Assembly (NCBI GenBank): GCA_040753015.1
Contig: JBFMHM010000003.1
Span: 83,463-147,462 of the forward strand
Direction of reading: 5' to 3'
Origin: Candidatus Omnitrophota bacterium
GTDB taxonomy: Bacteria; Omnitrophota; Gorgyraeia; Gygaellales; JBFMHM01
Length of the DNA: 64,000 nucleotides
Shown here: positions 18,649 to 39,565 of the stretch, one piece after another
Position numbering within the stretch: the stretch's first letter is position 1
Layout: the number at the start of each line of letters is the position of its first letter
Notes under the pieces: model-generated
Told to the model about the DNA's origin: nothing
What the model saw: only the letters and a program-made list of their open reading frames with translations
Databases searched by the model: none
Position numbers and translations under genes: made by a program

Positions 18649-19455
18649 TCAAAATTTGGGTTTAATGCTATATTTCTCTATAAGCAGCGGAATTGTTTGT
18701 TTGGCATTTACGATCAAATCTGCTTCGGTTTCTTCGAATAAAAATGGCCTAAGCGTTTCAGCTTGTTTTTTTAATTCATCATTAGAAAAATCCTCTATTC
18801 TTTTTATAATGCTATCTAAGGGGTTGGATTTAATCCCTAATGCCCTCAAAACATCAATATTAATTGGATACTTATTGGAAAGCATAAACATAATATCATA
18901 AATATGCCTTGCGCGATTTTTCTTATTTAAAGCATCTATTTTATCCGCAAATAACGCTCCTTTTTCCGTGCATATACAAGGATATAGCTCACCAAAGGCG
19001 GATATAAGTTGGGTGTCTGGCTTTATTTCCCATTTAGGATTATTGGTTTCTACTTTAATAATAATACCTGATTTTTGTGAATATTTAGATATAACATTAT
19101 ATGATTTTTCAATATCAGGAAAAATTAATTTTGAAACATAAATATTATCCCAATGGCCAAATTCCAGCGCTAATTTTATTCCAACGCGTTCTAATTCTAT
19201 TTTTATTTTTTTTAAAATACCCTCGAATAAAACTCTATCCATATTGCTTGCATTAAAATCCAAATCCTCAGAAAATCTCTTTAGATTATGCACCAGTCTT
19301 AAATAAGTTCCGCCGGTGAAAAAAAGCGATTTGGTTTGTTTGTATAATTCCTTTAATACTAGAACCTGTAAATACTCCCTCAAAATTCCTCTAACTTTAC
19401 TAGTAGGCATTTGTCTTACCTTGGCTTGCTCTATTAAAGAATCATAGGTTAGCAT
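18649..19455 (-). CDS. Nucleotidyltransferase AbiEii/AbiGii toxin family (DUF1814) of a type IV toxin-antitoxin system
   Basis: Hallmark motif GGTYLRLVHNLKRFSEDLDF; ~268 aa; overlaps the upstream AbiEi-like gene by 14 nt. Confidence 0.7.
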   Translation of the reverse strand: MLTYDSLIEQAKVRQMPTSKVRGILREYLQVLVLKELYKQTKSLFFTGGTYLRLVHNLKRFSEDLDFNASNMDRVLFEGILKKIKIELERVGIKLALEFGHWDNIYVSKLIFPDIEKSYNVISKYSQKSGIIIKVETNNPKWEIKPDTQLISAFGELYPCICTEKGALFADKIDALNKKNRARHIYDIMFMLSNKYPINIDVLRALGIKSNPLDSIIKRIEDFSNDELKKQAETLRPFLFEETEADLIVNAKQTIPLLIEKYSIKPKF

Positions 19456-20053
19456 AAATCAACTCCTTTAGGTTAAGCTTATAAATTTGCGCGTATTTAT
19501 CCAATTTTTTCTTCTTGAGATTGGAAATAATATCTCTATCAAGCCTCTCTTCTTCAAAATTAAATTTTTTATTGCGATAAGTTTTAAAATATAAATAATC
19601 CACTAATGCTTTTTCCGGTTCAGCAATAAAAATATCAAAGTTTCCCTGTTTTTCTACATAATAACCGCAAAATGCCTCTGGCTTAACTGTACGATAGGTA
19701 AAAAGGCCGTGTTTATTTTTAAATTTACGCGTAGATTTTGTAGTAACAGAAGTTACACTCATAGCAACTTCGGAAATAATACTATAATTAGATAGAGCTG
19801 TCTCTAGAGACACATAAGATGGCGCATACAATCTATTTGCAATATAAAAATCCGGAATATTGAAATCTCTGGGGTAGCTTAATTCGTAACACTCTTTCTT
19901 TAAAGCAGTTAACCAGCCCTTCTCTTTCCATCTAGAAATCATTTTCTTAAGATTGATTTTATTTTCTTTGGGAAAAAATGCTAAAGTATCTTTAAAAGAA
20001 AAAAGGTAATATTTATTTTGCTCCAATTTTCCGTATAAATCATGGAATTTCAT
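19442..20053 (-). CDS. AbiEi-like antitoxin / transcriptional regulator (COG5340 family)
   Basis: YVSLETALSNYSIISE and IAEPEKALVDYLY motifs typical of AbiEi; directly upstream of, and overlapping, the AbiEii gene. Confidence 0.55.
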   Translation of the reverse strand: MKFHDLYGKLEQNKYYLFSFKDTLAFFPKENKINLKKMISRWKEKGWLTALKKECYELSYPRDFNIPDFYIANRLYAPSYVSLETALSNYSIISEVAMSVTSVTTKSTRKFKNKHGLFTYRTVKPEAFCGYYVEKQGNFDIFIAEPEKALVDYLYFKTYRNKKFNFEEERLDRDIISNLKKKKLDKYAQIYKLNLKELIYANL

Positions 20054-26772: not shown

Positions 26773-26885
26773 AATGCAAAAATCAAAATTACAAATTAAA
26801 ATTCAAAATTAGATTCAAATACCCTAAAATCTTTAATTTTTGATATGTCATTTTGATATTTGATTTTTAATATTTGATATATTCT
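26758..26885. promoter_or_regulatory. AT-rich iterated motif block upstream of the giant gene (AAAATCAAAAT repeats facing TTTGATAT/TTTGATTTT repeats)
   Basis: Seen directly: at least 5 AAATCAAAA-type units at 26758-26820 and at least 4 TTTGAT(A/T)T units at 26838-26880, reverse complements of each other. Lies in the ~365-bp region 5' of the giant ORF. Confidence 0.3.
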
Positions 26886-26954
26886 TATAGTATAAGTATG
26901 CACTATAGATAGGCTAATTTCAAGGGTTTTGGGGCGAAAAATGTAAGCGGTTAC

Positions 26955-26990
26955 AAATCAGGTATACCTCTTGGTGATTATACCTGATTT
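26955..26990. other. Perfect 12-bp inverted repeat AAATCAGGTATA ...12 nt... TATACCTGATTT (stem-loop)
   Basis: Seen directly, in the intergenic region between the leuA-3' duplicate and the giant gene; no flanking T-run. Confidence 0.3.
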
Positions 26991-27060
26991 GATCCCGAGT
27001 CATACGAGGGAACTATCATATAACCACTTTAAAATACTAGACTTAAGAATTACGCAGTAT

Positions 27061-27127
27061 ATTTATTTATTGCGTTTAGGTAGGCTTTAATTGAGGCTTC
27101 AATTACATCTGTTGAACTGCCGCGGCC
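27061..27127. repeat. Direct-repeat copy (~67 bp, ~90% identical) of the leuA 3'-terminal coding segment 28187..28253
   Basis: 27061-27115 is identical to 28187-28241 (55/55), then ~10/14 more bases match. This copy lies 10 bp beyond the yhcG-like stop, so the ~1.06-kb yhcG segment is bracketed by the repeats. Confidence 0.7.
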
Positions 27128-27137
27128 AATTTTAAGT

Positions 27138-28145
27138 TTATTTCACAATATTTAATTTTTTCGCCCAGTCTTTCGATGAGGGCAAATATTTTTTTAGCGT
27201 CTTTGGCAACGACTTATTTAAAGAATATGTCGAAACACCTATCGGTTTTTTAACATCCTTAAGGGCATATTCAACAACTGTACGGCTCTTACTTTTACAA
27301 ATAATAATTCCAATGGCCGGATTTTCTTCTTCAAGTTTATCCCGATCATTAAGCGCAGAAAGATAAAACTGCATCTTCCCAGCATACTCAGGTTTAAAAT
27401 CGCCGATCTTAAGCTCAATTGCAACTAAACATCTCAATTTTCTATGATACAAAAGAATATCCACGAAATATTCGCGGCCGTCAATCTCTATCCTATGTTG
27501 ATTGGTGATAAAACAAAAGTTTCCGCCTAATTCCAGCAGAAACCGCCTAACATTTACCATGAGTGCCCGCTCCAACTCATTCTCCAAATGCTCATCACCC
27601 AATTCCAAAAAATCAAATGTGTACTCATCCTTAACAGCGAGTTTTGCTTGATTTCGAATATTAACGGGCACTGTTTTGTCAAAGCTAGTCTGATTAAGAA
27701 GCGTTTTATCGTAAGACTGATTCTCGATTTGATGAATAAGAACATCTTTCGTCCACCCGAACTTCTTAGTCATGTTGATATAGAAAACGCGCGCTTCTTC
27801 TTTCTTGCACTGGCTCATAATAACCAGATGTTTCGCCCAACTAATTTCTCCAACCAATGGTTGGAGAATTAAGCTCCCTTGATATTCTCCATAAAACTGC
27901 CTCATATACCAAAGATTCTGCGACGAAAAACCCTTGATTCCCGGAAATTCCTTTTGTAAATCTTGAGCTAATGTTTCAACAATCGCCTTACCCCACCCAA
28001 ACTCTTTTTGCTTCTCAATAATCCTTCTCCCAATATCCCAATAAAGCGCAATAAGTTCTTTATTAACAACTTTTAATGCTTCATATTGCGAAGAGCGAAC
28101 TCGTTCTTTAATATCCTCAAGAAAAAACTTATAATCACTATTCAA
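27138..28145 (-). CDS. YhcG/DUF1016 family PD-(D/E)xK nuclease
   Basis: N-terminus (...YEALKVVNKELIALYWDIGRRIIEKQKEFGWGKAIVETLAQDLQKEFPGIKGFSSQNLWYMRQFY...) matches the conserved YhcG-N/DUF1016 pattern. The C-terminal region has a PD-(D/E)xK-like core (IGIIICK...). Confidence 0.65.
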   Translation of the reverse strand: MNSDYKFFLEDIKERVRSSQYEALKVVNKELIALYWDIGRRIIEKQKEFGWGKAIVETLAQDLQKEFPGIKGFSSQNLWYMRQFYGEYQGSLILQPLVGEISWAKHLVIMSQCKKEEARVFYINMTKKFGWTKDVLIHQIENQSYDKTLLNQTSFDKTVPVNIRNQAKLAVKDEYTFDFLELGDEHLENELERALMVNVRRFLLELGGNFCFITNQHRIEIDGREYFVDILLYHRKLRCLVAIELKIGDFKPEYAGKMQFYLSALNDRDKLEEENPAIGIIICKSKSRTVVEYALKDVKKPIGVSTYSLNKSLPKTLKKYLPSSKDWAKKLNIVK

Positions 28146-28175
28146 TTTTAGCTTCGTAATGTCCTCGCTTTTATG

Positions 28176-29681
28176 TTAAACGACTAATTTATTTATTGCG
28201 TTTAGGTAGGCTTTAATTGAGGCTTCAATTACATCTGTTGACGAGCCACGGCCAAAGATTTCTTTATTTTTTATAGTTAGTTTTAGCGTTACTTCCCCTT
28301 GAGCGTCTTTACCGTGAGTTACCGCAGAAATTTTATAGTCAGAAAGTTTTGGTGTTAATTTAGTAATTTTATCAATTGTTCTAAAACAGGCATCAACCGG
28401 ACCATCCCCCGAAGACTCTGCACAAACATTCTTTCCTTCAAATTTTAAAATAATTGCGCTTTTTGGTTTGATCTTATTACCTGAAGTTATTTCAAAACTT
28501 TGCAATTTATAGATTTCTTTAACTTTTTTTATTTCTTCATCTAAAATAATCAATAAATCATCATCAAAAATTTCTTTTTTCTTATCGGCAAGATCTTTAA
28601 ATTTTATAAAAGCCTCATCAATTTGTTTTTGGCTTAATTTAAATCCTAATTTTTCAAGGCGGCTAGTAAAGGCATGACGGCCAGAGTGTTTTCCAAGCAC
28701 AATTCCTTCAATAATAAAACCGACATCTTCAGGGTTAATTATTTCATATGTTGATGCCTCTTTTAATACACCGTCCTGGTGAATTCCTGACTCATGACGA
28801 AAAGCATTTCCACCAACAATTGCTTTATTCCGCGGAACCTCAAAACCCGTAAGTTTACTAACCAAGCGAGAAGTCTTGCAAATTTCTTTTGTATTGATCG
28901 TTGTATATAAATTTTTGAATATGTTTTTCTTTACCCACATCGCCATAACTATTTCTTCTAAGCTTGCGTTTCCTGCGCGCTCACCAATACCATTAATAGT
29001 ACATTCCACTTGGCGCGCCCCATTTAAAACTGCACTCAAACTATTTGCACTAGCAAGTCCTAAGTCATTATGACAATGCACAGAAATAACTACCCTATCA
29101 ATATTAGGCACATTATTTTTTATATCACGAATAAGTTCGCCAAAACCCTGCGGCTCAGTAAAACCAACGGTATCGGGAATATTTATCGTTTTTGCACCAA
29201 CATCAATTACAGCTTCTACGACTTTATACAAAAATTCTTTTTCTGTCCTTGCCGCATCTTCTGGAGAAAATTCAATATCGTTAATATATTTTTTCGCATA
29301 TTTTACACTCTCAACTGCCAGGCGCAAAATTTCATCTTTAGCCTTATTAAGCTTGAATTTTCTATGAATTGGGGATGTTGCTAAAAATACATGTATACGA
29401 GGACGCTTTGCTTTTTTAACAGCCTGATATGCCGCGTCTATATCTTTACGGGTTGCACGCGCTAAGCCGCACACGCCGCATTTTTTTATTTTCAAAGCAA
29501 CAGTCTCAACCGCCTTAAAATCTCCTGGGCTTGCAATAGGAAAACCTGCTTCAATAATATTAACCCCTAAGCGCTCTAACTGTAAAGCAACTTCAAGCTT
29601 TTCTTGAGGGTTTAATGCTGCGCCCGGCGCCTGTTCTCCATCACGCAGAGTCGTATCAAAAATAACTACTTTTTCATCCAT
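28176..29681 (-). CDS. leuA: 2-isopropylmalate synthase
   Basis: N-terminal [11 protein letters not shown] and HxH motifs (HCHNDLGLA); ~500 aa with the LeuA dimerisation/regulatory C-terminus. Confidence 0.85.
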
Positions 29682-30655
29682 GGCATCATATCACGCAGCT
29701 TACGGCCAGTCTCTTCTATCTTATGGCTATCGCCTTCAGTAATCAAACGGTTAAAGTTTGGACGGCCCGCTTCATTTTCTTTAATCCATTCCTTAGCAAA
29801 TTTGCCTTTTTGAATTTCTTTTAATATTTTCTTCATTTCTTTGCGCGTTTTATCTGTGATAATACGTGGACCGCGGGTCAAATCCCCATAACAAGCAGTA
29901 TTTGAAACACGCCTGCGCATTCCAGAGATACCATATTCTTGAATTAAATCCGTTATAAGTTTTAATTCATGTAAAACTTCAAAATAAGCAATCTCTGGTT
30001 GATAACCTGCTTCAATAAGTGTATCAAAACCAGCCTTGATTAATTCTGAAACACCACCGCAAAGAACTGCTTGCTCACCAAATAAATCTGTTTCGGTTTC
30101 TTCCTTAAAATTAGTTTCAATTACGCCAGCCTTTGTTGCACCAAGTGCTTTTGCATAGCTAAGAGCAATCTTTAAAGCATTGCCAGTTGCATCCTGATAA
30201 ATGGCAACTAATGATGGCACACCCTTTCCTTCTTCGTACATACGGCGCACTAAAGCTCCTGGGCCTTTGGGTGCAACCATAAACACATCTACATTTTTTG
30301 GCGGGCGAATTTGTTTAAAATGAATATTAAATCCATGAGAAAAACAAAGTGCTTTACCTTTTTTTAGATTTGGTTTAATTGCATCATTGTAAACTTTTGC
30401 CTGCACATGGTCTTGAGTTAAGATTTGAATGATATCAGCTTGTTTTGCCGCCTCTTCTGCTGAGACCGGCGCAAAACCATCGCGTATTGCGCTTTCAAAA
30501 TTTGGGGTTCCTTTTATTTCAGAAACAATAACATTAATTCCAGAATCTCTTAAACACAAACTTTGGCCTCTACCTTGAATACCGTAGCCAATAATTGCAA
30601 CTTTTTTATTTTTTAAAATATTTAGATCTGCGTCTTTATCATAATAAATCTTCAT
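29666..30655 (-). CDS. ilvC: Ketol-acid reductoisomerase
   Basis: [21 protein letters not shown] Rossmann motif and KARI fold; ~329 aa. Confidence 0.9.
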
Positions 30656-30706
30656 TATGCCTCCTCGTTATTTTTTTATTAACTACCTAATCTTTCTAGA
30701 ATCATC

Positions 30707-31264
30707 TTATGAATGGAATCCGATTATTCTTCTTTCTTTATCTGACGACGGTTCCAATAATTGTTTAATAGCCTGAAAAACTATTACAAACTGCTTATCG
30801 TACTTTCTCTCCATTTCTTCAATCTTACGTTTAAGACTCACATTAGTTAAAAGCATGCGTCTTAATTGCGCAAAGGCACGCATAATTTGAATATTAACCA
30901 TAATTGCGCGCTCGCTATTCAGTACACTTGAAAGCATCGCTACGCCTTCCTGTGTAAAAACATAGGGAAAATATCTTCTTCCTCCTCGCTTTGAGGTCGC
31001 ATTTTGCGACCTCAAAAAATCCGCTTCTTCTTCTGTAAGTTGGAACATAAAATCTTCTGGAAATCTCTTTTTATTCCTTGCTACCTGCTCATTAAGCCGT
31101 TTTGTCCTTACTTCATAAAGTACAGCTAAATCACTATCTAACATTACCCTTTTACCGCGAATAATTAAAATCTTTGTGGCTATCGCTTCCGTCGGAACTA
31201 AATTAGACATACCTATTTCCCCATCGATTTTTATTGTTCGTGGCCTGGTCCACTCATGACACAT
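30707..31264 (-). CDS. ORF6N-domain (KilA-N-like) protein
   Basis: IRGKRVMLDSDLAVLYEVRTKRLNEQVARNKKRFPEDFMFQLTEEE...RGGRRYFPYVFTQEGVAMLSSVLNSERA is a textbook ORF6N domain. The real start is probably the internal Met at ~31210. Confidence 0.65.
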   Translation of the reverse strand: MCHEWTRPRTIKIDGEIGMSNLVPTEAIATKILIIRGKRVMLDSDLAVLYEVRTKRLNEQVARNKKRFPEDFMFQLTEEEADFLRSQNATSKRGGRRYFPYVFTQEGVAMLSSVLNSERAIMVNIQIMRAFAQLRRMLLTNVSLKRKIEEMERKYDKQFVIVFQAIKQLLEPSSDKERRIIGFHS

Positions 31265-31731
31265 TCTTTACAATTAATGGCTTCTTGAAGGACATTTGTT
31301 ACTTCCTTACTGTTAATCATATATTTTCTTTTTCCTCCGGAATCCATTTTCAAATTAGTTGTTTGACCATTTTCTGATTTAATAGGCATAGTATCTCTAT
31401 ATTCTTGAACCATGGCTTTTACAAATTCTGGCGATAATTTGCATTCCATCTTACCACCACCTGGTAATTCTTGAATATAATGGCACCTATCTCCTTCCTT
31501 GCCAATTATCTCTCTTGTAAGCGTCTGCCCGCTGAAAGGATCCATAGTTTTACATTTAAAAGGCTCACCTTTTTCTAATTTATCTGGAAATTCTTTACAA
31601 TATTCTCCCGAAAGAAGCTTCATTTGTTCTTCACTTATAGATATTCCTTCTTGAGCTTCTGCAAAATAGAAACAAACAAGAAAAAGCAATATCACTATAT
31701 TTAAACAAATTATTTTTTTAAACATCTTCAT
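31231..31731 (-). CDS. Hypothetical secreted Cys-containing protein
   Basis: Signal peptide; 6 Cys including a C-terminal CKEC pair; no recognisable domain. Confidence 0.4.
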   Translation of the reverse strand: MKMFKKIICLNIVILLFLVCFYFAEAQEGISISEEQMKLLSGEYCKEFPDKLEKGEPFKCKTMDPFSGQTLTREIIGKEGDRCHYIQELPGGGKMECKLSPEFVKAMVQEYRDTMPIKSENGQTTNLKMDSGGKRKYMINSKEVTNVLQEAINCKECVMSGPGHEQ

Positions 31732-31746
31732 TCTCTTCCCCTTCCA

Positions 31747-32208
31747 TTAAGATTCCATCGCAATTTTGCCAGTTTTAACCAGCTCTATAACCTTAAAGTC
31801 GCCTATATCATTCATAAAATTTTTTATCTGATTTTCATCACCCATAATCTCAATTACAAAATAATCTTTTTTTGCCTCAATAATTTTTGCCGGGTATTTT
31901 ATAACAATATCTTTAATTTTATCTTTCGCTTCAATTTTAATTAATATTAGCTCGCGGGCAATATAATCTTTTCTTGTAAAATCCGTCACACTAATAACAT
32001 CAATTAATTTATTAAGCTGTTTTTTGATCTGTTCTAAAACTTTTTCATCTTCAGCATTAACCACAATTGTCATATAAGAAACTGCTTCGTCTTGAGTTTC
32101 GGAAACCGCTAACGATGAAATATTATAGCCGCGAGCGCTAAAAAGCCCAGCCACTCTAGCCAAAACGCCAAATTTATTTTCAACTAATACAGATATTGTG
32201 TGTTTCAT
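31747..32208 (-). CDS. ilvN: Acetolactate synthase small (regulatory) subunit
   Basis: ACT-domain N-terminus ISVLVENKFGVLARVAGLFSARGYNI; immediately downstream of ilvB. Confidence 0.8.
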   Translation of the reverse strand: MKHTISVLVENKFGVLARVAGLFSARGYNISSLAVSETQDEAVSYMTIVVNAEDEKVLEQIKKQLNKLIDVISVTDFTRKDYIARELILIKIEAKDKIKDIVIKYPAKIIEAKKDYFVIEIMGDENQIKNFMNDIGDFKVIELVKTGKIAMES

Positions 32209-32209
32209 T

Positions 32210-33883
32210 TTACGCTAATCCGCTAATCATTTTATTTATCGGCTCTCCTGCAGGTACCATTGGATAAACGTTTTCTTCTCTTTCAACACGGAAATCAATC
32301 ATTACCGGTTTATCCTTAATAGATAATGCTTTCTTGATTGCTTGTTTTACATCGGATTTTCTTGTAATTTTCATGCCGATTGCGCCAAAACTTTGTGCAA
32401 GCTTAACAAAATCCGGATTACACAATGGTGTCTGAGAATACCTTTTTTTATAAAAAAGCTCCTGCCATTGCCTAACCATACCTAAATAACAATTATTTAA
32501 AATTGCAATCTTTATTGGTAATTTATTAACAACTGCTGTCATCATCTCTTGAATATTCATCTGTATTGAGCCATCTCCGGCGATATTAAAGACGGTTTTT
32601 TTAGGACATCCTAATTGGGCACCAATTGCTGCAGGCATTCCATAACCCATCGTGCCCAAACCACCACTAGAAATAAATGTACGTGGTTTTGTATATTTAT
32701 ACCACTGAGCTGCCCACATTTGATGCTGGCCAACTTCAGTACAAATTATAGCATCACCATGAGTTTGGCGGTTAATTTCTTCGATGATAAATTGTGGTTT
32801 TATCCCATCAGTTTTTCTATATTTTAAGGGATGACGAGCCTTCCATTCACTAATAGTTTTTAGCCACTCTCTTGTATCGGGTTTTTTTGTTATGAATTCT
32901 ACTAATTCTCTTAAAACATTTTTTGCATCGCCAACTACAGGTATATCAACACGAATATTCTTGCTAATTGATGTAGGGTCAATATCAATATGAATTATTT
33001 TTGCATAAGGCGCAAATGTATCAGTGCGGCCTGTAACACGATCGTCGAAACGTGCACCAATCGCAATAATACAATCTGCCTCCATTATCGCATGATTTGC
33101 ATAAGCTGTACCATGCATACCTAACATCTTTAGAGAAAGCGGGTGTGTTTCATCAAAACCACCAAGCCCCATAAGCGTAGTCGTAACTGGGCTTTGAATT
33201 TTCTCTGCAAGTATTTTTAACTCTTTCTCCGCTTGCGATATAATAATCCCGCCGCCTGCATAAATTATAGGCTTTTTGGCTTTTTCAATTAATTTAGCCG
33301 CTTTTTTAATCTGCCCGGGATGGCCAAAATAATTCGGATTATAGCTTCTAATCGTTATTTTCTCTGGCCAGATAAATTCAGCTTCTTTAATTTGCACATC
33401 CGAGGGAATATCGACAAGCACAGGCCCAGGGCGCCCTGTCGAAGCAATATAAAATGCCTCACGAATAACTTGGGCTAGATCTTCGGTTCTTTTAACTAAA
33501 AAATTATGTTTAGTAATTGGCCGGGTAATACCTGTTAAATCTGCTTCTTGAAAAGCGTCATTACCAATTAAATTAGTTTTAACTTGGCCAGTAAATGCCA
33601 CCATAGGTATTGAATCCATATAGGCAGTTGCAATACCAGTAATAAGGTTAGTTGCGCCGGGCCCGCTAGTTGCAAGGCACACGCCAACTTTTCCAGTTGC
33701 CCGAGCATAACCATCAGCTGCGTGCGCTGCGCCTTGCTCATGACGCGTTAAAATAAATTTTAATTTGGCATCATAAAGTTTATCAAAAATAGGCAAAACC
33801 TGACCGCCAGGGTAGCCAAAAATTATTTCAACTCCCTCACGCTTTAAACACTCAATAAATATCTGTGCACCCGATAATTTCAT
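32210..33883 (-). CDS. ilvB: Acetolactate synthase large subunit
   Basis: ThDP-binding motifs ([11 protein letters not shown]), ~557 aa. Confidence 0.85.
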
Positions 33884-33938
33884 ATCTTATATTTTCCCAA
33901 TAACTACTTTTTATTTTTCTTTAAATAAATGAAAAAAA

Positions 33939-34787
33939 TTATTTGATTTTTAATAATTTATTATTCTGCGAATGCGCAAGATAATTCTGTTTACTAATTA
34001 CGCTCTTGCCAGTTTTATGCTCGAGTTCAATACGCGCATTTTTAGCGATCTTTCCGCCTTTTACAGCAGGAACTTTATTTTCTTCTAATCCATCAGCACC
34101 AATCGTTTCTGCAATTTGCCGAGTTGAAAGTTCAGCAAGAGCAGTAAAGATAAGCTCTGCTTCAGTCATATGATCGCGTAAATTTTCAGTTTTCAATTTT
34201 TTTAATTGTTTATGCTGTTTTATGGATAAATCACTCCATTCTTGATGAATAATATTAGTTAATATGGCATATTCATCCTGTTCTTTTACATCGTGATTTT
34301 TCCAATAATCAGTTAATTTATTTCTTGTTTCCTGGCCCATCATCCTTTGCTGAATCCACTTTTCGCTTCGCCCTAATTTTTGCCAATATTCCCGCGCACG
34401 ATTTAATGATTTTTCTGGATCGGAAATTTCTTGTATTCGTTCATGCCCAACTTTGGCAAGCCATAACTTAATAGGTTCGGCTTTTGGACTAGGCACAGAC
34501 TGAATTACGCGAAACAGGGTTTGAATATCTGCCAAATCCGTAAAACGCATTTTTCCATCTTCGGCCTTTAATTTCAAACGGTGACATTTTGTCACCGCTT
34601 CACTGCCCTCTTTACGAAGCCGCTGCGAAAGCTTATTCCAATATTTTCTCGCAGTTTGATAATCAAGTTGACCTGTTAAAACTTGAACAATATCAACCAC
34701 GGAAAAATACCATTTTTCTTGTTTCTCATCCCAAATTCTTCTAATTTTTCTGCCTTGAAAAATAGCAACTTTATTATCTTTTTTCAT
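33939..34787 (-). CDS. DinD-like DNA-damage-inducible protein with N-terminal Bro-N domain
   Basis: The N-terminus (IRRIWDEKQEKWYFSVVDIVQVL) has a Bro-N pattern. The C-terminal KQHKQLKKLKTENLRDHMTEAELIFTALAELSTRQ closely parallels the E. coli DinD conserved block. Start is 1 nt after the ilvD stop. Confidence 0.6.
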   Translation of the reverse strand: MKKDNKVAIFQGRKIRRIWDEKQEKWYFSVVDIVQVLTGQLDYQTARKYWNKLSQRLRKEGSEAVTKCHRLKLKAEDGKMRFTDLADIQTLFRVIQSVPSPKAEPIKLWLAKVGHERIQEISDPEKSLNRAREYWQKLGRSEKWIQQRMMGQETRNKLTDYWKNHDVKEQDEYAILTNIIHQEWSDLSIKQHKQLKKLKTENLRDHMTEAELIFTALAELSTRQIAETIGADGLEENKVPAVKGGKIAKNARIELEHKTGKSVISKQNYLAHSQNNKLLKIK

Positions 34788-34788
34788 A

Positions 34789-36441
34789 TTAAGCTAACAC
34801 TGCGCCTTTATCTGCAGAGCTTACTAATTTGGAATACCTAGTTAAATAACCTTTCTTAATCTTTGGCTCAATTGGTTTCCAATTTTCAAATCTTTTTTTG
34901 ATTTCTAAATCGCTTAGCTTAACTTCTATTTTTCGTTTTGGAATATTAATACTTATTATATCGCCATCTCTTAAAATTGCAATTGGCCCACCCGCGCTTG
35001 CCTCGGGAGAAACATGCCCGATACAAGGGCCTTTTGTACCACCGGAAAATCTACCGTCGGTAATAAGAGCAACAGAATCGGCTAAACCCATGCCAACAAT
35101 TGCCGCGGTTGGCGCAAGCATCTCACGCATACCTGGCCCGCCGCTTGGGCCTTCATAGCGGATTACAACTATATCACCGCTTTTAATCTTACCGCCTAAT
35201 ATTGCTTTCATTGCTTCTTCTTCTTGATTAAATACAGCCGCACGGCCGGTAAACTTCATCATTTTTGAGTTTACCGCAGCCTGTTTTACCACTGCTCCAT
35301 TTGGCGCAAGATTACCAAACAACACCGCAAGGCCGCCTTGTTTATGATATGCTTGCCCGAGAGACCTGATTACATCTTCGTCAAAAATTTTTGCCTCATC
35401 AGCAATTTCAAAAACTCTTTTACCAGATAAAGTTAATGTATTATTTAACATTGTCTTTAAGCGCTTTAATACCGCAGGAATTCCTCCGGAATATTCTAGA
35501 TCTTCCATAAAATGCGGGCCTGCTGGTTCTAAATTAGTAATATGTGGAGTATTTTTGCTAATATCATCAAAAGTTTTTAACTTTAAATTAACACCTGCCT
35601 CATTGGCAATTGCCATCAAATGCAAAACGGTGTTGCTAGAACCACCAAGCGCCATATCAACTACAATTGCATTATTTAAAGACTGCTCGTTGATTATATC
35701 TAATGGTTTAATATTTCTTTTGACTAATTCAACAATGCGTTCACCGCTGCCTAAAGCAATGCGCCGTTTTTTTGCAGAAATTGCAAGCGCTGTTGCGCAA
35801 CCCGGTAAAGACATACCTAAAGTTTCTGTAAGGCAAGCCATCGTATTTGCTGTGTATAAACCCTGACAAGAACCAGCACCTGGGCAGGCCTCTAACTCAA
35901 TACAAGATAATTCTTGTTCGCTGATTTCGCCTTTTTTTGCTCTGCCTAATGCCTCATAAGTATCGTGAACAAAAGCAAGTTTCTTTTTATCATAGCGGCC
36001 AGACAACATCGGCCCAGCAGTTAGAATTATTGCTGGGATATTTAACCGCGTAACACCCATAAGCATACCTGGAGTAATTTTATCACAATTAGTTAAACAA
36101 ATAATACCGTCTAACTGATGAGCGTTACAGACTGTTTCAATAGTATCGGCAACAATTTCGCGCAGTGCTAAGGGATAGCACATGCCTAAATGCCCCATAG
36201 CAATTCCATCGCAAATTCCCGGAACACCAAAGAAAAACGGTACTCCTCCACCATAACAAATTCCCCGCTCAATAAAACGCTCTAAATCACGCATGCCAAT
36301 ATGGCCGGGAATAAGGTCGGTAAAAGATGTAGCCACACCAATAAACGGCCTATCTAAATCTCTCTTGGATAATCCTGTTGCATGTAAAAGTGCACGGTGT
36401 GGAACACGCTCCAAACCCTTTTTAATTATATCTGAACGCAT
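34789..36441 (-). CDS. ilvD: Dihydroxy-acid dehydratase
   Basis: Full-length ILVD/EDD family with the Fe-S ligand Cys pattern (CPGAGSC), ~550 aa. Confidence 0.9.
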
Positions 36442-36457
36442 TAATTATCACCTTTCG

Positions 36458-37459
36458 TTATACCAACTCAAACTGTGATTGAGATATCTCTTGTTTATTT
36501 TCTTTTCTATAAAAAAGACTCGATTCTTTTTCTTCGTCAATTTCCTTTAACCTTCTATCTGCTATCTTCACATATTCACTATTTGCATCTATCCCAATAT
36601 ATTTCTTCCCTAATATTTTAGCCGCAACAGCCGTAGTCCCACTCCCAACAAAAGGATCTAAAATTATAGCATCCCTAGAGAAACTAGAAATCTTTATTAA
36701 ATATTCGCAAATGGCTAATGGTTTTACAGTCTTATGCGTATTATAACCCCCTTTTTCTTTTTTCGTCGGTTTTGGCAAAAGAAAAGTTTTATCTATAAGT
36801 TCATTGATGCCCTGTACCGTAAAAACATTTGCTGGATACATATTGTTACCAATTTTAACCCTAGTATTTAATAACCCTACTTGGTGCTCCAGGATATTAT
36901 TCAAATATGTCTTATCTACGGGTTTTTGAGCCAATGCTATAGGTTCGAAGCAAGATTTAATCTGTGGAGTCTTCCAACCACTCAATCTTTCTTTAATTTT
37001 ATTTCTTGTCTTAATATCTGTATCCATTTTTTCTATTAAATGATCAAGGCCCATTGCTTTTGCTTGATTCTGCGTATAAAGCCACATAAAAGCATCTCTT
37101 ATTTCAAACCCAGCGTCATCGATAGCCGATGCCATCCTATGATAAAGCCGCGGGCTAGAAAAAGAAAAGAAGAAACCCCCTGGCTTTAAAATTCTAAAAA
37201 TCTCTTTTGAAATTTCAAGATACCAAATATAGAATCTCTTGCCTTGCTCTCTATCAAATTTCATTCCCGCAGGTAAAGATTTTATAGTATATTGATTGCT
37301 GTCATCGGAAACCTGCTCATAACTCCAGTTATTATCCAACTTATCTAAAAAATATGGGGGATCGGTCAAAACAACATCAATAGAATCTGTTTCTAGTTTT
37401 AGTAATATTTCTATTGCATCGGCGCAAATGATCCTATTAATAAAATCTCTATTCTTCAT
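36458..37459 (-). CDS. DNA methyltransferase (N6-adenine/N4-cytosine, beta-class, DPPY motif)
   Basis: Motif IV VVLTDPPYF near the N-terminus and motif I DPFVGSGTTAVAA near the C-terminus, the circular permutation typical of beta-class amino-MTases. Confidence 0.75.
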   Translation of the reverse strand: MKNRDFINRIICADAIEILLKLETDSIDVVLTDPPYFLDKLDNNWSYEQVSDDSNQYTIKSLPAGMKFDREQGKRFYIWYLEISKEIFRILKPGGFFFSFSSPRLYHRMASAIDDAGFEIRDAFMWLYTQNQAKAMGLDHLIEKMDTDIKTRNKIKERLSGWKTPQIKSCFEPIALAQKPVDKTYLNNILEHQVGLLNTRVKIGNNMYPANVFTVQGINELIDKTFLLPKPTKKEKGGYNTHKTVKPLAICEYLIKISSFSRDAIILDPFVGSGTTAVAAKILGKKYIGIDANSEYVKIADRRLKEIDEEKESSLFYRKENKQEISQSQFELV

Positions 37460-37460
37460 T

Positions 37461-38200
37461 CTAAGTTATTTCGCTTGGATTCTGCCCTTTAAATTCATTA
37501 TACAGTATTCTATAAACTTTTTTACGAATATCTAAATCACAAGTTTTTATAACTTGTGGATTTGCTAACCTTATAACACGACCTTTGTTATCGTAAACCC
37601 ATCTATTCCTATCACCCCTATTGCATTTTTGACACTGCGGAATAATATTGCCAATAACTAAAGGCTTATTAGGTTCATATGCGCCTTTTGTAGAATAGTT
37701 TTCGTTGCCGGCCAATGAAAATGCGGCTTACTTTCTTGCGAACCACAAGTTGCACACCTAAGATTATATTTTTCTTTTATCTTCTTCCAATTCCCTGTAT
37801 CATTTATCCTATGGCCTCTTTTAAAAGAAGGATATGGTTCCTCCAAAGTATATAATTGATACGCGCCACGCTCTATGTTTAAAACAATGTTATCTCTTCC
37901 GCCAGAAACTATCCACCACCCACTTTGTGCACCTAAATGCCTTGCTTGTTGAACATCGTTCGTATTCGGATAATAACTTCTCACAAACTTAGTTAATTCT
38001 TCTTTACTTACTTTCCTTGTATTTGGATAATCATACGCCAAATAAACCAAGACAAGAGCATCTTTAGTGAAATTATTATTCTTATCATAGAGTTTAGGTA
38101 ATTTTACTCCAAATTTCCTTAAATATTTTTCATGAAACTCTTGTAGAGTTTTATAAATGCTCGCGATTGACTTTTTATTTAAAATTAGACTATCCAGCAT
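37461..38200 (-). pseudogene. Putative restriction endonuclease (Cys/His-rich, HNH-like) split by a frameshift into 180-aa and 84-aa ORFs
   Basis: Two ORFs in different frames overlap at 37658-37715. The upstream part ends ...RCATCGSQESKPHFHW...; the downstream part contains ...IIPQCQKCNRGDRNRW. Together this is a CxxC...H.H...CxxC arrangement directly upstream of the MTase. The 84-aa ORF needs a TTG start. Confidence 0.4.
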
Positions 38201-38221
38201 ATGATTATAGATATTCTATCC

Positions 38222-39565
38222 CTAATCTGCTCCCTCAGCATCTCTTTCCACTACTTCAGCCGGCCCCTTTCTCAATCTTGATATAACCCGCTTTACCTTA
38301 ATATATTTACTAACCAAATCTTTAGTATTAATCACATTTAATTTTTTAAAAAGAAAATCAAATTTTTCTTCAACTTCCCCAGCAATCTTATCACGTATCG
38401 CGCTATCTAAATTCATGATTTCTTTTTTAAACTGGCCAAAAGCTTTTTTACGTGTAGAATAATAAAATTGCTCGTCAGTTTGATCAGGTTTTCTTTCGCT
38501 ACTGCACGCCTCTTTTAGCCAAGCATAAATTTTATTCTTTAAATCAACTGGGAAATTAGGGCTGTCGAAAACCATATTCTGAAACTGGGTTGCCAAATGC
38601 ACCTCTAGTGTTCCAACTTCAGGAAATTTGCCAAATGCATCATCAGGCAAAGTTGAGGCGCCATGCTGCACAGCGCCACCTAAACCAAATTCTTCTCTTG
38701 AAATTTTAGAAAGTGTTTTTAAGGTATCGAAATCAAGTTTAACTTGAGCGATTGTCCCATCTGGTAACACTACGCCGCCATGAGATGTACCAGTTTGTAC
38801 GCTAATTTTTGAAATTCCAATACGCCCTTTTCTTAATCTTTCTTTATACCCATTCATAAATGCGCGCAGCTCTTCTGGTGTTGAGTTTGCCTTACCAACT
38901 TCACCAATCTCACCACCCACAGATACAGTTATACCTTTTGGTTCAATCTGACGGATAAATTGAGTAAGTTTTGCGCAAACTTCAAAATTTAACTCTTGCT
39001 CTTTTTCAATAGAACCCTTAGTTAAATCGACGAGTGTTGACGAATCAATATCAATATTATAGAATCCTGCATCAATAGCTTCTTGAATTAATTTTTTTAA
39101 CCCCTCGAGCTCATTCTCTGAATTTTCTTTATATTTTTTTGGATTAACCTGAGTATGGTCTGCCTGAATAAATACCGGGCCAGAATATTCTTCTCGCACA
39201 GCTGCACCTAAAATTACTGATACATACTCTAAAGGGCTCTGATCAGTATAACCCATCTCCGATTTTGCAATTTCAAAAATGAACGTACCGGAGTTATTGC
39301 GTTTAGCAACACGAAATATTGCCCTTGCTAAATCATAAGTTAGGCCTCTAAGGTTAATTGCTGGTACCGTAAATCCGCTAAATTCACCTCGGCCTGCGGC
39401 CATATATAAATCATTTATGGATGATGAATATACCCCCTGCTTATAGGCGATATCTTTAATTTTTTTACCAAGCCTTTCCTTTAACACAATATCACTAGAT
39501 GTAACTAAACTTATAACTAATTTATCCATATCTAACTTTGGCCTGCCTCTTACCATCTCTTTCAT
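38222..39565 (-). CDS. Class II ketose/fructose-bisphosphate aldolase (long form)
   Basis: ~447 aa with class II aldolase-like metal-binding His motifs (QADHTQV, SVQTGTSHGG, GGAVQHGAST); next to pfkA. Confidence 0.5.
   Translation of the reverse strand: MKEMVRGRPKLDMDKLVISLVTSSDIVLKERLGKKIKDIAYKQGVYSSSINDLYMAAGRGEFSGFTVPAINLRGLTYDLARAIFRVAKRNNSGTFIFEIAKSEMGYTDQSPLEYVSVILGAAVREEYSGPVFIQADHTQVNPKKYKENSENELEGLKKLIQEAIDAGFYNIDIDSSTLVDLTKGSIEKEQELNFEVCAKLTQFIRQIEPKGITVSVGGEIGEVGKANSTPEELRAFMNGYKERLRKGRIGISKISVQTGTSHGGVVLPDGTIAQVKLDFDTLKTLSKISREEFGLGGAVQHGASTLPDDAFGKFPEVGTLEVHLATQFQNMVFDSPNFPVDLKNKIYAWLKEACSSERKPDQTDEQFYYSTRKKAFGQFKKEIMNLDSAIRDKIAGEVEEKFDFLFKKLNVINTKDLVSKYIKVKRVISRLRKGPAEVVERDAEGAD

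What the first reader, a model, noticed from the sequence alone, without database searches (positions are those of the whole stretch)
30707..34787. Phage-type ORF6N (KilA-N) and DinD/Bro-N proteins, plus a Cys-rich secreted protein, wedged inside the ilv operon
Between ilvC and ilvN sit an ORF6N-domain gene (30707-31264) and a small secreted Cys-rich gene (31231-31731). Between ilvB and ilvD sits a DinD-like Bro-N protein (33939-34787) whose start codon is 1 nt from the ilvD stop. All are co-oriented and tightly packed, so they would be co-transcribed with branched-chain amino-acid biosynthesis. Bro-N and ORF6N domains are hallmark DNA-binding modules of phage antirepressors and DNA-damage-inducible proteins. 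Together with the YhcG insertion at leuA and the RM pair after ilvD, the leu/ilv operon hosts five separate accessory insertions.
Basis: partly seen in the sequence, partly recalled or inferred. Interest (0 to 1): 0.6.

Follow-up and report, generated by a model that had tools for sequence, protein, structure and literature searches.

The report
Operon-embedded defence-candidate genes with internal palindromes
Four or five foreign single genes, three from families listed as candidate anti-phage genes, were slipped precisely between the amino-acid-biosynthesis genes of one Omnitrophota lineage, and those three families all carry a conserved perfect DNA palindrome inside their coding sequence that I could not find described in the tools and literature available here.

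Summary
ORF6N (Pfam 1.5e-34) and Bro-N (1.3e-7, above cut-off) genes and a secreted Cys-containing gene sit co-oriented and tightly packed between ilvD/ilvB and ilvN/ilvC. The Bro-N ATG is 1 nt after the ilvD stop.

Corrections: the ORF6N start is 31210, not 31264, so it does not overlap the Cys-rich gene. "DinD-like" is only a distant relationship.

None of 53 related Omnitrophota ilv loci carries any of these inserts. They are lineage-specific acquisitions, not an ancient arrangement.

The "phage antirepressor" reading is not supported. No phage, integrase or transposase domains turned up in the 36 of about 58 window ORFs that were scanned, the families are nearly absent from viral contigs, and homologues elsewhere are solitary chromosomal genes.

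PADLOC assigns Bro-N/DinD-like to PDC-S13, ORF6N to PDC-S05 and YhcG to PDC-S02. These families were nominated as defence candidates because they nest inside RM, BREX and DISARM operons. Here they nest in a housekeeping array, next to a decayed type II RM and an AbiE pair.

New: each of the three families carries a position-conserved intragenic perfect palindrome with compensatory substitutions. In ORF6N it is read in two reading frames. All 14 DUF1016 genes examined have it, including E. coli K-12 yhcG. Its function is unknown.

The parts
33939..34787 (-). Bro-N / DinD-like gene (282 aa), PADLOC PDC-S13. Inserted between ilvD and ilvB. The ATG is 1 nt after the ilvD stop, and a 55-nt AT-rich spacer precedes ilvB.
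   Evidence: Pfam Bro-N 1.3e-7, 32.6 bits against cut-off 25.6. PADLOC PDLC04920 9.2e-121 over the full length. PHROG 15286, unknown function. 100% identical to an NCBI Candidatus Omnitrophota MAG protein, with more than 8000 homologues, the listed best 120 at 70-80% identity and mostly Patescibacteria. Junction sequences. DNA similarity to homologues is confined to the ORF.
34579..34597 (-). Intragenic palindrome of the Bro-N gene, CGGTGACA-AAA-TGTCACCG, over codons A-V-T-K-C-H-R.
   Evidence: Present at the same codons (V-T-x-C-H/N) in 8 of 8 family genes, with arms up to 12 bp. The synonymous third base of the Val codon covaries with the residue four codons on: GTG with CAC (His), GTT with AAC (Asn).
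31231..31731 (-). Secreted Cys-containing protein (164-166 aa) of an uncharacterised ~120-aa domain family, inserted after ilvN.
   Evidence: No Pfam, NCBIfam, PADLOC or PHROG hit. 301 cluster representatives at E<=1e-3, often as the C-terminal domain of larger secreted proteins. Conserved Cys and motifs in alignment A1. AF2 pLDDT 84.7. No PDB fold match, best E 0.66. Absent from all related ilv loci.
30707..31210 (-). ORF6N gene (167 aa with the corrected start), PADLOC PDC-S05. Inserted before ilvC, with a 51-nt spacer and a strong ilvC SD.
   Evidence: Pfam ORF6N 1.5e-34. PADLOC PDLC04856 4.1e-57. Homologues 80-89% identical, many in Omnitrophota, NCBI length 167 aa. Solitary in other genomes. 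DNA similarity starts exactly at ATG 31210.
30990..31016 (-). Intragenic palindrome of the ORF6N gene, TTTGAGGTCGCA-AAA-TGCGACCTCAAA (12-bp arms), over codons F-L-R-S-Q-N-A-T-S-K.
   Evidence: As RNA it folds at -19.1 kcal/mol, z -4.3. All 60 unique ORF6N segments keep at least 10 of 13 pairs at this site. On the 40 distinct 35-nt rows of A5, 88.7% of cells pair against 64.8% shuffled and 27-44% slid, and 11 of 13 pairs change on both sides. Synonymous-recoding p<=0.001 for most. The same core GGTCACAAATTGTGACC is read in two reading frames.
27138..28145 (-). YhcG / DUF1016 PD-(D/E)XK nuclease gene, PADLOC PDC-S02, inserted at the 3' end of leuA.
   Evidence: Pfam YhcG_C 4.6e-60 and DUF1016_N 2.2e-45. 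PADLOC 2.2e-142. It is the compositional outlier of the region, with GC3 0.370 and CAI 0.60.
27846..27868 (-). Intragenic palindrome of the YhcG gene. On the coding strand it reads TTCTCCAACCA-T-TGGTTGGAGAA.
   Evidence: (I18). A perfect 9-15 bp-arm palindrome lies at the homologous site in 14 of 14 DUF1016 genes spanning 28-61% aa identity, including E. coli K-12 yhcG. 91.6% of cells pair against 64.8% shuffled, and 13 of 14 pairs change on both sides.
28187..28269 (-). Direct repeat copy 1, inside the leuA 3' end (encodes ...[25 protein letters not shown]).
   Evidence: the repeat finder D1, alignment, comparison with relatives' LeuA C-termini.
27061..27143 (-). Direct repeat copy 2, just after the YhcG stop. 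It is a displaced pseudo-3' end of leuA ([26 protein letters not shown]). A 55-nt core is identical to copy 1, and the upstream part differs only by synonymous changes.
36458..37459 (-). Type II N6/N4 DNA methyltransferase, inserted between fba and ilvD.
   Evidence: Pfam N6_N4_Mtase 4.3e-33. PADLOC MTase_II 6.8e-47. Absent from relatives.
37461..38200 (-). Two overlapping ORFs (180 aa and 84 aa) that read as one frameshifted restriction-enzyme-like gene with a CxxC...CxxC / H-N motif.
   Evidence: Sequence and translations. No family or PDB sequence match, even for the repaired fusion. The HNH reading is by eye only.
18649..20053 (-). AbiEii nucleotidyltransferase toxin (18649-19455) plus an upstream 203-aa partner (19442-20053). 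A further defence-type module about 7 kb downstream of YhcG.
   Evidence: Pfam AbiEii 8.9e-17. The partner has no Pfam hit.
28176..36441 (-). Host framework genes ilvD, ilvB, ilvN, ilvC and leuA, between which the inserts lie.
   Evidence: Pfam. Conserved order in 53 related loci.

Best explanation
The window comes from a Candidatus Omnitrophota genome.

Shown:
- Its conserved, tightly packed, co-directional housekeeping string (metK-ahcY-pfk-fba-ilvD-ilvB-ilvN-ilvC-leuA) has acquired 4-5 foreign single-gene inserts in this lineage only.
- The inserts are bare ORFs. DNA similarity to homologues begins at the ATG and ends inside the ORF.
- No own promoter or terminator is evident.
- Three inserts belong to families that PADLOC catalogues as single-gene phage-defence candidates because they are recurrently nested inside type I RM, BREX and DISARM operons. 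These are Bro-N/DinD-like (PDC-S13), ORF6N (PDC-S05) and YhcG/DUF1016 (PDC-S02). A decayed type II RM and an AbiE pair lie alongside.
- Each of the three families carries a position-conserved perfect DNA palindrome inside its coding sequence, kept by compensatory substitutions.

Inferred:
- The inserts are expressed by read-through from the host array. For Bro-N this would be by stop-restart coupling (TAAtATG).
- They are operon-embedding accessory genes, not prophage antirepressors.
- Their products are DNA-structure-binding or DNA-cutting proteins. Two have a KilA-N-type N-domain plus a helical C-domain. YhcG has a Holliday-junction-resolvase-like nuclease domain.
- They act against invading DNA or on damaged DNA.
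- The palindrome is a cis element tied to this lifestyle. The most likely roles are a structure or dyad recognised by the gene's own product, giving context-independent self-control, or some other DNA-level signal.
For: Lineage-specific insertion:
- None of 53 loci with IlvB >=66% identical has any of the inserts. Junctions there are typically -4 to +70 nt.

Family identity:
-. E. coli DinD is itself PDC-S13.
- PDC families were defined by embedding in defence operons (bioRxiv 10.1101/2024.01.29.577857).
- A PDC-S05 representative cut T7/T5 plating about 1000-fold (10.1101/2024.09.26.614923).

Embedding habit seen directly:
- YhcG homologues sit between cas3' and cas10d, between hsdM and hsdS, and between pglX and pglZ.
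- One sits between traU and traW in Rickettsia (PMC4316617).

Horizontal spread:
- The Bro-N protein is 75-80% identical between Omnitrophota and Patescibacteria, above the best IlvB match of 76% within the phylum.
- Frequent Omnitrophota-Patescibacteria transfer has been published (PMC12455944).

ORF-only unit.

Palindromes:
-.
- Controls: 462 housekeeping genes give 0.046 per kb, scattered. 15 other accessory genes have none.
- The YhcG nuclease domain is closest to junction resolvases (PMC1189080).
- The AF2 model of the Bro-N protein matches the DNA-break sensor DdrC by Foldseek, E 9e-5 to 2e-4.
Against: - No experiment shows defence for PDC-S13. The PDC-S02 representative tested gave no protection against T4, T5 or T7, and the protective PDC-S05 representative had a RhuM domain that this ORF6N protein lacks.
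- The Cys-rich secreted protein has no defence or DNA link and may be an unrelated passenger.
- GC3 and CAI of Bro-N and the Cys-rich gene are indistinguishable from core genes, so direction and age of transfer are unknown.
- Promoter and terminator scans are uninformative, with counts equal to shuffles. Co-transcription is inferred from spacing only.
- The DdrC match rests on a mediocre model (pLDDT 64.6, TM 0.35-0.5) and has no sequence-profile support.
- In the palindromes, symmetry runs up to a single central base and G.T is not preferred over A.C (11 against 20). That fits a copying process such as template switching as well as it fits selection.
Confidence: 0.7

Rival explanations
1. Purely selfish operon-invading genes. 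The three families spread because they can insert as promoter-less ORFs between co-directional genes and ride host transcription. 'Guilt by embedding' then reflects their insertion habit, not a defence role. The intragenic palindrome would be the cis site for their mobility or maintenance.
For: - Here they embed in a biosynthetic array, not a defence operon.
- Homologues embed in CRISPR, RM, BREX and tra operons alike.
- Cross-phylum conservation is very high and the conserved unit is ORF-only.
- YhcG is bracketed by an 83-nt duplication of the leuA 3' end with synonymous differences, which looks like attL/attR.
- YhcG lies directly after an integrase on two plasmids.
- PDC-S02 gave no protection in the one test on record.
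Against: - The Bro-N and ORF6N junctions carry no recombinase, target duplication or terminal repeats.
- A palindrome in the middle of the ORF cannot be the cassette's recombination junction.
- Strong purifying selection on full-length proteins implies a protein function that benefits something.
- A PDC-S05 member did protect.
Confidence: 0.2
2. One reading: remnants of a prophage or phage-derived antirepressor / DNA-damage-inducible regulators that now regulate, or are regulated with, branched-chain amino-acid biosynthesis.
For: - PHROG anti-repressor families match the ORF6N domain, best 1.3e-25.
- Bro-N and KilA-N modules are common in phage antirepressors (established knowledge, Iyer et al. 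2002).
- The broader ORF6N family is present on viral contigs: 92 pattern hits.
Against: - No phage structural, integrase or repressor domains were found in the 36 of about 58 window ORFs that were Pfam-scanned. The remaining ORFs, at 1-10 kb and 53-64 kb, were not scanned.
- This ORF6N subfamily was not found in IMG/VR.
- The DinD-like motif has 2 hits in 2.9 M viral contigs.
- The full-length Bro-N match is to a PHROG of unknown function.
- Inserts are separate single genes at four junctions, and relatives lack them.
- None of about 160 ilv loci carries these families, so there is no link to ilv regulation.
Confidence: 0.05
3. The palindromes are neutral. A quasi-palindrome that arose by chance in each family ancestor is kept perfect by intra- or inter-strand template switching (arm-to-arm copying), limited only by what the protein tolerates. 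They would have no function and no link to embedding.
For: - Symmetry extends to the base pairs flanking a single central nucleotide, where a hairpin cannot pair.
- Pairs are strictly Watson-Crick, with no G.T preference.
- Arm sequences differ freely between members.
- Sporadic long perfect palindromes also occur in housekeeping genes, for example a 17-bp arm in one ilvB.
- Template-switch correction of quasi-palindromes is an established mutational process.
Against: - Palindromes are position-conserved across very deep divergence: 28% aa identity in DUF1016, two reading frames in ORF6N, and the shared V-T-x-C site of Bro-N and ORF6N.
- They occur in 3 of 3 embedded families. None of 15 other accessory genes has one, and there is no conserved site in 462 housekeeping genes.
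- Palindromes are normally deletion-prone, so long persistence suggests selection.
Confidence: 0.35

Closest known systems
PADLOC phage-defence candidates PDC-S13, PDC-S05 and PDC-S02 (Payne et al. 2024 preprint, 'guilt by embedding')
   Same: The three inserted proteins match these HMM sets over their full length, at E 9e-121, 4e-57 and 2e-142. They show the defining habit of being co-oriented single genes nested tightly between the genes of a multi-gene unit.
   Different: - The host unit here is a housekeeping biosynthetic/glycolytic array, not RM, BREX or DISARM.
- Defence activity is unproven for S13 and was negative for the one S02 tested.
- The protective S05 representative carried a RhuM domain that is absent here.
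- The intragenic palindromes did not turn up in the full-text searches run here or in Rfam. The PDC preprint was searched only for family and domain names, not for palindromes.
E. coli DinD (DNA-damage-inducible protein D, b3645)
   Same: Both fall under PADLOC PDC-S13. Both have a similar length and two-domain plan, with a KilA-N-type N-domain and a helical C-domain. The E. coli DinD C-terminal part matches the window protein's HMM at 2e-16.
   Different: - Pairwise similarity is marginal: 28% over 100 aa, E 0.009.
- The N-domains are different subtypes. E. coli DinD hits a PDC-S05-type model, the window protein hits Bro-N.
- There is no NCBIfam hit.
- E. coli dinD has its own SOS promoter (from memory) and no palindrome of at least 8 bp.
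Deinococcus radiodurans DdrC (PDB 7qvb, 8u0g, 7udi)
   Same: It is the only significant PDB fold match of the Bro-N/DinD-like model: Foldseek E 9e-5 to 2e-4, probability 1.0, over about 250-266 columns. Both have a beta-hairpin plus winged-helix N-domain and a helical-bundle C-domain. Both families are linked to DNA damage.
   Different: There is no sequence or profile similarity. The model is mediocre (pLDDT 64.6) and TM is only 0.35-0.5. DdrC was described as having no known structural homologues (PMC9303277). This is a lead, not a membership.
Phage antirepressors with KilA-N / Bro-N / ORF6N N-domains (e.g. PHROG 4792)
   Same: They share the N-terminal DNA-binding fold. The ORF6N domain matches PHROG anti-repressor families.
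   Different: There is no prophage context. The C-terminal halves differ. The full-length Bro-N protein matches a PHROG of unknown function. This subfamily is essentially absent from viral contigs.
Integron gene cassettes / attC hairpins and free-standing homing-endonuclease genes
   Same: They are promoter-less single ORFs inserted precisely between genes. A palindromic element is associated with each gene. One family (YhcG) is a nuclease.
   Different: - The palindrome lies in the middle of the ORF, not at the cassette end.
- No integron integrase or attI was seen in the 36 of about 58 window ORFs that were scanned.
- Bro-N and ORF6N carry no recognisable nuclease domain.
- Homing does not create the 83-nt target duplication seen at YhcG.

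Membership tests
Pfam ORF6N (PF10543) | Score above the curated gathering threshold across the domain | tested here: met
   118.6 bits against 27.8, profile positions 2-86 of 86.
Pfam Bro-N (PF02498) | Score above the curated gathering threshold | tested here: met
   32.6 bits against 25.6, E 1.3e-7, profile 1-92 of 96. The margin is modest. Precomputed Pfam marks homologues as 'weak'.
E. coli DinD family | Full-length sequence homology to E. coli DinD | tested here: inconclusive
   BLASTP finds only the C-terminal 100 aa, 28% identity, E 0.009. There is no NCBIfam match. Both are in PADLOC PDC-S13 via different HMMs, and the E. coli DinD C-terminus hits the window's HMM at 2e-16.
E. coli DinD family | LexA/SOS-regulated expression and inhibition of RecA filaments | not testable with these tools
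   No upstream intergenic region exists (1 nt after ilvD), so a LexA box is impossible at the usual place. Biochemistry was not addressable.
PADLOC PDC-S13 / PDC-S05 / PDC-S02 | Match to the family HMMs | tested here: met
   E 9.2e-121, 4.1e-57 and 2.2e-142.
PADLOC PDC-S13 / PDC-S05 / PDC-S02 | Nested between genes of a known defence system (the criterion used to nominate them) | tested here: not met
   Here they are nested between ilv/leu genes. Homologues of YhcG do meet it.
PADLOC PDC-S13 / PDC-S05 / PDC-S02 | Protection against phage | not testable with these tools
   Literature only. One S05 representative (RhuM type) protected, one S02 did not, and no data exist for S13.
Phage antirepressor / prophage gene | Location in a prophage or phage genome with repressor, integrase or structural genes | tested here: not met
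   No such genes among the 36 of about 58 window ORFs that were scanned. Viral-contig scans found 0 and 2 hits.
Type II restriction-modification system | Intact methyltransferase plus intact cognate endonuclease | tested here: not met
   The MTase is intact. The adjacent endonuclease-like reading frame is split into 180-aa and 84-aa ORFs by a frameshift near 37670-37700. A sequencing error cannot be excluded.
Integron cassette | attC at the 3' end of the ORF and an integron integrase/attI nearby | tested here: not met
   Palindromes lie mid-ORF. No integrase was seen in the scanned part of the window.
Known RNA families (Rfam 15) | Covariance-model match to the palindromic elements | tested here: not met
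   No match at E<=1 in 26500-38500.

The most novel reading that the evidence does not exclude
Three unrelated families of solitary, operon-embedding genes each carry a selected, position-conserved perfect DNA palindrome inside their own coding sequence. The families are DUF1016/YhcG, ORF6N and Bro-N/DinD-like, which PADLOC lists as PDC-S02, S05 and S13. The palindrome would be a cis element bound up with how these promoter-less genes live. One example is a cruciform or dyad recognised by the gene's own structure-specific DNA-binding or junction-resolvase-like product, giving context-independent self-control or sensing. If so, 'guilt by embedding' partly detects a class of self-contained embedded genes rather than defence as such.
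Probability: 0.4. Interest if true: 0.8.

Novelty: new variant of a known kind. Interest (0 to 1): 0.62.

Why it matters
- The case shows that families nominated as anti-phage candidates purely because they nest inside defence operons nest just as neatly inside a housekeeping biosynthetic array. That weakens the embedding criterion and points to a property of the genes themselves.
- It adds a concrete cis feature that I found no record of in Rfam or in the one full-text literature search run for it. The feature is a conserved intragenic palindrome, read in two frames in ORF6N and maintained through synonymous/non-synonymous compensation.
- The palindrome is also present in E. coli K-12 yhcG, so it can be tested at once by synonymous mutagenesis, expression assays, and binding or cleavage assays.
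- It links E. coli DinD-type proteins structurally, though tentatively, to Deinococcus DdrC, which was described as lacking known structural homologues.

Tried and rejected
- Exact-sequence lookup of the Bro-N protein's contig found nothing on record.
- NCBIfam gave nothing for any accessory protein.
- PDB sequence searches with the single protein and with the profile were uninformative.
- I looked for closer relatives with empty sites in genome and metagenome collections. The best IlvB match is only 76% identical, so no strain-level empty/filled comparison or exact insertion breakpoints were possible.
- I looked for flanking target duplications or terminal repeats around Bro-N and ORF6N, in the window and in six homologous loci. 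None was convincing.
- Shared DNA beyond the ORFs: none.
- Paralogues of the accessory genes in the window or in about 160 ilv loci: none.
- The hypothesis that the Cys-rich protein is homologous to the 167-aa insert of L005 was rejected.
- The Cys-rich protein as an orphan was rejected by the exhaustive HMMER search.
- A sense-RNA-specific structure for the ORF6N palindrome is not supported: A.C mismatches (20) are at least as common as G.T (11), and Rfam has no match.
- A repaired fusion of the split endonuclease had no PDB sequence match.
- Promoter and terminator scans do not differ from shuffles.

Full report
**1. Observation**

Pfam identifies the framework genes. In transcription order, with inserts in brackets, they are: metK, ahcY, pfk, class-II aldolase, [unk180, unk84, N6/N4 MTase], ilvD, [Bro-N], ilvB, ilvN, [Cys-rich], [ORF6N], ilvC, leuA, [YhcG/DUF1016].

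- ORF6N scores 118.6 bits against a cut-off of 27.8.
- Bro-N scores 32.6 bits against a cut-off of 25.6.
- The Bro-N ATG follows the ilvD TAA by one base. A 55-nt AT-rich spacer precedes ilvB.
- The ORF6N gene should start at 31210, not 31264. NCBI's identical protein is 167 aa, PADLOC alignments start at residue 19, and DNA similarity to homologues starts at that ATG. It therefore does not overlap the Cys-rich gene.
- Nearly all ORFs of the window are on the minus strand, so co-orientation alone says little.

**2. Organism and synteny**

The three proteins are 100% identical to proteins of an NCBI Candidatus Omnitrophota MAG with a 169.5-kb contig.

Scans with IlvB returned 160 loci. Of these, 53 have IlvB at least 66% identical and are essentially all Omnitrophota. 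Their shared order is metK-ahcY-pfk-fba-ilvD-ilvB-ilvN-ilvC-leuA-aroE-pilD-malQ, with junctions of about -4 to +70 nt.

No locus contains a homologue of Bro-N, ORF6N, the Cys-rich protein, YhcG, the MTase or the two unknown ORFs. These are lineage-specific insertions.

About 10% of junctions in other lineages hold different, unrelated inserts: DUF4139/4140, a response regulator, GAF-HD proteins, an MCP, T2SSE ATPases and DUF3352. The array is a generally permissive co-directional string rather than a classical ilv operon.

GC, GC3 and CAI of Bro-N and the Cys-rich gene match the core genes. YhcG is the outlier, with GC3 0.37 and CAI 0.60.

**3. What the inserts are**

PADLOC matches:

| Insert | PADLOC assignment | E-value |
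|---|---|---|
| YhcG | PDC-S02 | 2e-142 |
| ORF6N | PDC-S05 | 4e-57 |
| Bro-N protein | PDC-S13, full length | 9e-121 |
| MTase | type II MTase | 6.8e-47 |

PDC families were nominated because they are nested within BREX, DISARM, type I RM or Hma systems. What is known experimentally comes from one study:
- One PDC-S05 representative, of RhuM type, reduced T7/T5 plating about 1000-fold.
- One PDC-S02 representative did not protect.
- PDC-S13 is untested.

E. coli DinD is itself PDC-S13, and its C-terminal half weakly matches the window protein's HMM. Direct similarity is marginal and NCBIfam gives nothing.

Homologues of Bro-N and ORF6N in other genomes are solitary genes with varying housekeeping or accessory neighbours.

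Evidence against a phage origin:
- No close relative of this ORF6N gene was found in IMG/VR.
- A conserved DinD-like motif occurs in only 2 viral contigs.
- No phage, integrase or transposase domains appear in the 36 of about 58 ORFs of at least 100 aa that were Pfam-scanned, which cover roughly 10-54 kb. About 22 ORFs at 1-10 kb and 53-64 kb were not scanned, so the ends of the window are untested.

An AbiEii toxin with a partner lies at 18.6-20.1 kb. The two unknown ORFs next to the MTase read as one frameshifted endonuclease-like gene with CxxC...CxxC.

Within about 20 kb, five defence-type modules therefore interleave with core metabolism.

The Bro-N protein is 75-80% identical to thousands of Patescibacteria proteins. 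That exceeds the best within-phylum IlvB identity of 76% and indicates recent cross-phylum spread. It fits published frequent exchange between these phyla.

DNA similarity to homologues is confined to the ORFs.

**4. The Cys-rich protein**

The word-indexed search found only the protein itself. The exhaustive HMMER search found 301 cluster representatives sharing a ~120-aa domain, often at the C-terminus of larger secreted proteins that also carry fn3, TSP3, PsbP or WD40 parts.

Conserved cysteines and motifs are in alignment A1. The AF2 model is confident (pLDDT 84.7). No PDB fold match was found. I see no link to the neighbouring ORF6N gene other than adjacency.

**5. How YhcG got in**

YhcG is bracketed by an 83-nt direct repeat. 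One copy is the true 3' end of leuA. The other copy, just after the YhcG stop, encodes a displaced LeuA C-terminus.

The two copies share a 55-nt identical core. The upstream part differs only by synonymous changes. This looks like attL/attR of a 1.1-kb cassette that brought or displaced a leuA end.

No recombinase lies inside the cassette. On two plasmids, YhcG homologues directly follow an integrase. No comparable signature exists at the Bro-N or ORF6N junctions.

**6. Unexpected common feature: intragenic palindromes**

*In the window.* The 64-kb window has only 8 perfect inverted repeats with arms of at least 9 bp; shuffles give 3.7. Two of the eight lie inside ORF6N (30990-31016) and YhcG (27846-27868). 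The Bro-N gene has an 8-bp one (34579-34597).

*ORF6N.*
- I collected 60 unique gene segments from the window, L084-L086 and IMG/VR loci found by a motif scan.
- All keep at least 10 of 13 pairs at the same site, and about half have perfect 8-13 bp arms.
- Synonymous recoding gives p<=0.001 for most.
- Pair counting on the 40 distinct 35-nt rows of A5 gives 88.7% of cells paired, against 64.8% shuffled and 27-44% slid. Eleven of 13 pairs change on both sides. The covariation score is 0.578 against 0.162.
- The centre of each segment was chosen to maximise pairing, which inflates these figures somewhat.
- The same DNA core GGTCACAAATTGTGACC encodes S-Q-I-V-T in one subfamily and V-T-N-C-D in another. 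It is read in two different frames.

*Bro-N/DinD-like.*
- Eight of 8 genes have the palindrome at V-T-x-C-H/N.
- The synonymous third base of the Val codon tracks the residue four codons later: GTG with CAC (His) and GTT with AAC (Asn). In ORF6N the pairing is GTC with GAC (Asp).

*YhcG/DUF1016.*
- Fourteen of 14 genes have perfect 9-15 bp arms at the homologous 8-codon site. They come from Omnitrophota, cyanobacteria, proteobacteria, actinobacteria, viral contigs and E. coli K-12.
- The arm sequences are quite different from one another.
- 91.6% of cells pair, and 13 of 14 pairs change on both sides.

*Controls.*
- In 462 housekeeping genes (627 kb), such palindromes occur at 0.046 per kb and are scattered, not position-conserved.
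- Fifteen other accessory genes have none: RhuM, HsdM/S, Shedu, HepT, Cas3', AbiE, MTase, Fic, SocA, RadC and others.
- Rfam has no match, and a literature search returned nothing relevant.

**7. Reading the palindromes**

Pairs are strictly Watson-Crick. G.T is not favoured over A.C (11 against 20). In YhcG the symmetry runs up to a single central base, which hairpin energetics cannot explain. This argues for a DNA-level dyad rather than a sense-RNA hairpin.

It leaves two readings:
- **Selection for a structure or dyad recognised without fixed sequence.** This is attractive because the YhcG nuclease domain is closest to Holliday-junction resolvases. In addition, the AF2 model of the DinD-like protein, though mediocre at pLDDT 64.6, matches only the DNA-break sensor DdrC in the PDB. 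There is no sequence-profile support for that match.
- **Neutral maintenance by template-switch copying between arms.**

I put functional selection at about 0.4-0.55 and neutral maintenance at about 0.35. Occurrence in 3 of 3 embedded families and in none of the controls is the main argument for function.

**8. Mechanism, with status**

Shown:
- lineage-specific insertion;
- family identities;
- ORF-only conserved unit;
- tight junctions;
- the palindromes and their covariation.

Inferred:
- expression by read-through and stop-restart coupling;
- a role against invading or damaged DNA;
- self-recognition of the palindrome.

Not supported:
- prophage or antirepressor origin;
- any role in ilv regulation.

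**9. Verdict**

The finding is real, and the domain calls are right. The phage framing is wrong.

The better description is a dispersed set of operon-embedding defence-candidate genes in a housekeeping array. That is a new variant of a known kind. It comes with a palindrome feature that I could not find in Rfam or in the searched literature and that deserves follow-up.

Noticed in passing
window 27061-27143 and 28187-28269: An 83-nt direct repeat brackets the YhcG gene. One copy is the real leuA 3' end. The other is a displaced pseudo-C-terminus of LeuA with a 55-nt identical core and synonymous differences upstream. This is attL/attR-like, but there is no recombinase in the 1.1-kb unit.
   Followed up: partly
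window 37461-38200: The 180-aa and 84-aa ORFs next to the MTase overlap by 58 nt. They read as one endonuclease-like gene (CxxC...H...N...CxxC) broken by a frameshift near 37670-37700. This could be RM decay or an assembly error. The repaired fusion has no family or PDB sequence match.
   Followed up: partly
window 18649-20053: An AbiEii nucleotidyltransferase toxin gene with an overlapping upstream 203-aa partner, probably an AbiE type IV TA / abortive-infection pair. It lies downstream of the giant gene.
   Followed up: no
window 20134-26772, 26585-26612 and 26761-26878: A 2212-aa ORF with only a sub-threshold HEAT-repeat hit replaces the aroE-pilD-malQ genes that follow leuA in relatives. 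Its 5' part contains a perfect 28-nt palindrome, GTAGAGACGCACTG|CAGTGCGTCTCTAC. The 365-nt AT-rich region upstream has 40-nt imperfect inverted repeats.
   Followed up: no
window 31231-31731; proteins P0242-P0390; alignment A1: The Cys-rich protein defines an uncharacterised secreted ~120-aa domain family with about 300 clusters. Motifs include FPDKLE.C.P..C, HPFTGE, GKC.YIEEMPNGGKMEC and NPLQEA.N.G.CVISGY. It has no Pfam model. The AF2 model is confident, with no PDB fold match.
   Followed up: partly
model mb99f34ab1677 (window 33939-34787): The only significant PDB fold matches of the DinD-like protein are Deinococcus DdrC structures, at E about 1e-4. DdrC was published as having no structural homologues. 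The match rests on a model with pLDDT 64.6 and has no sequence-profile support.
   Followed up: partly
L278 7828-8955 (E. coli K-12 yhcG, b3220), nt 378-410 of the gene: The model-organism gene carries a 33-nt perfect palindrome, AAAGATTTGGCAGAC-GCT-GTCTGCCAAATCTTT. It lies at the site homologous to the window's YhcG palindrome, which makes the feature directly testable.
   Followed up: yes
L265 2989-4008; L266 2965-4005 and 5360-6391; L267 2977-4074: YhcG homologues on plasmids sit, with overlapping stops and starts, between cas3' and cas10d (Anabaena), hsdM and hsdS (Aeromonas, with RhuM between hsdS and hsdR), and pglX and pglZ (Methylomonas, next to Shedu). These are textbook cases of embedding.
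   Followed up: partly
L262 1501-2502: A 333-aa Bro-N/DinD-like homologue appears to contain the V-T-N-C motif and its palindrome twice: GGTGACAAATTGTCACC and GGTTACAAATTGTAACC. This suggests an internal duplication of the N-terminal segment.
   Followed up: no
L086 6001-6504 and 6707-7045: Two tandem ORF6N paralogues, 56% identical, each preceded by a 55-nt repeat. They carry different perfect palindromes at the same codon positions. The second copy looks truncated.
   Followed up: partly
L005, L017, L117, L092, L103, L019, L022, L098 (junctions of the ilv array): Other Omnitrophota carry different co-oriented inserts at the same junctions. A GAF-HD protein recurs between ilvB and ilvN, a T2SSE-type ATPase between ilvN and ilvC, and DUF4140/DUF4139 between ahcY and pfk.
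   Followed up: partly
L094 about 2954-2989 (nt 105-140 of the ilvB ORF, which starts near 2850); L088/L090 ilvD nt 516: Sporadic long perfect palindromes with 14-17 bp arms occur in single housekeeping genes of individual lineages and are not conserved. They are a useful baseline for how such palindromes arise.
   Followed up: no
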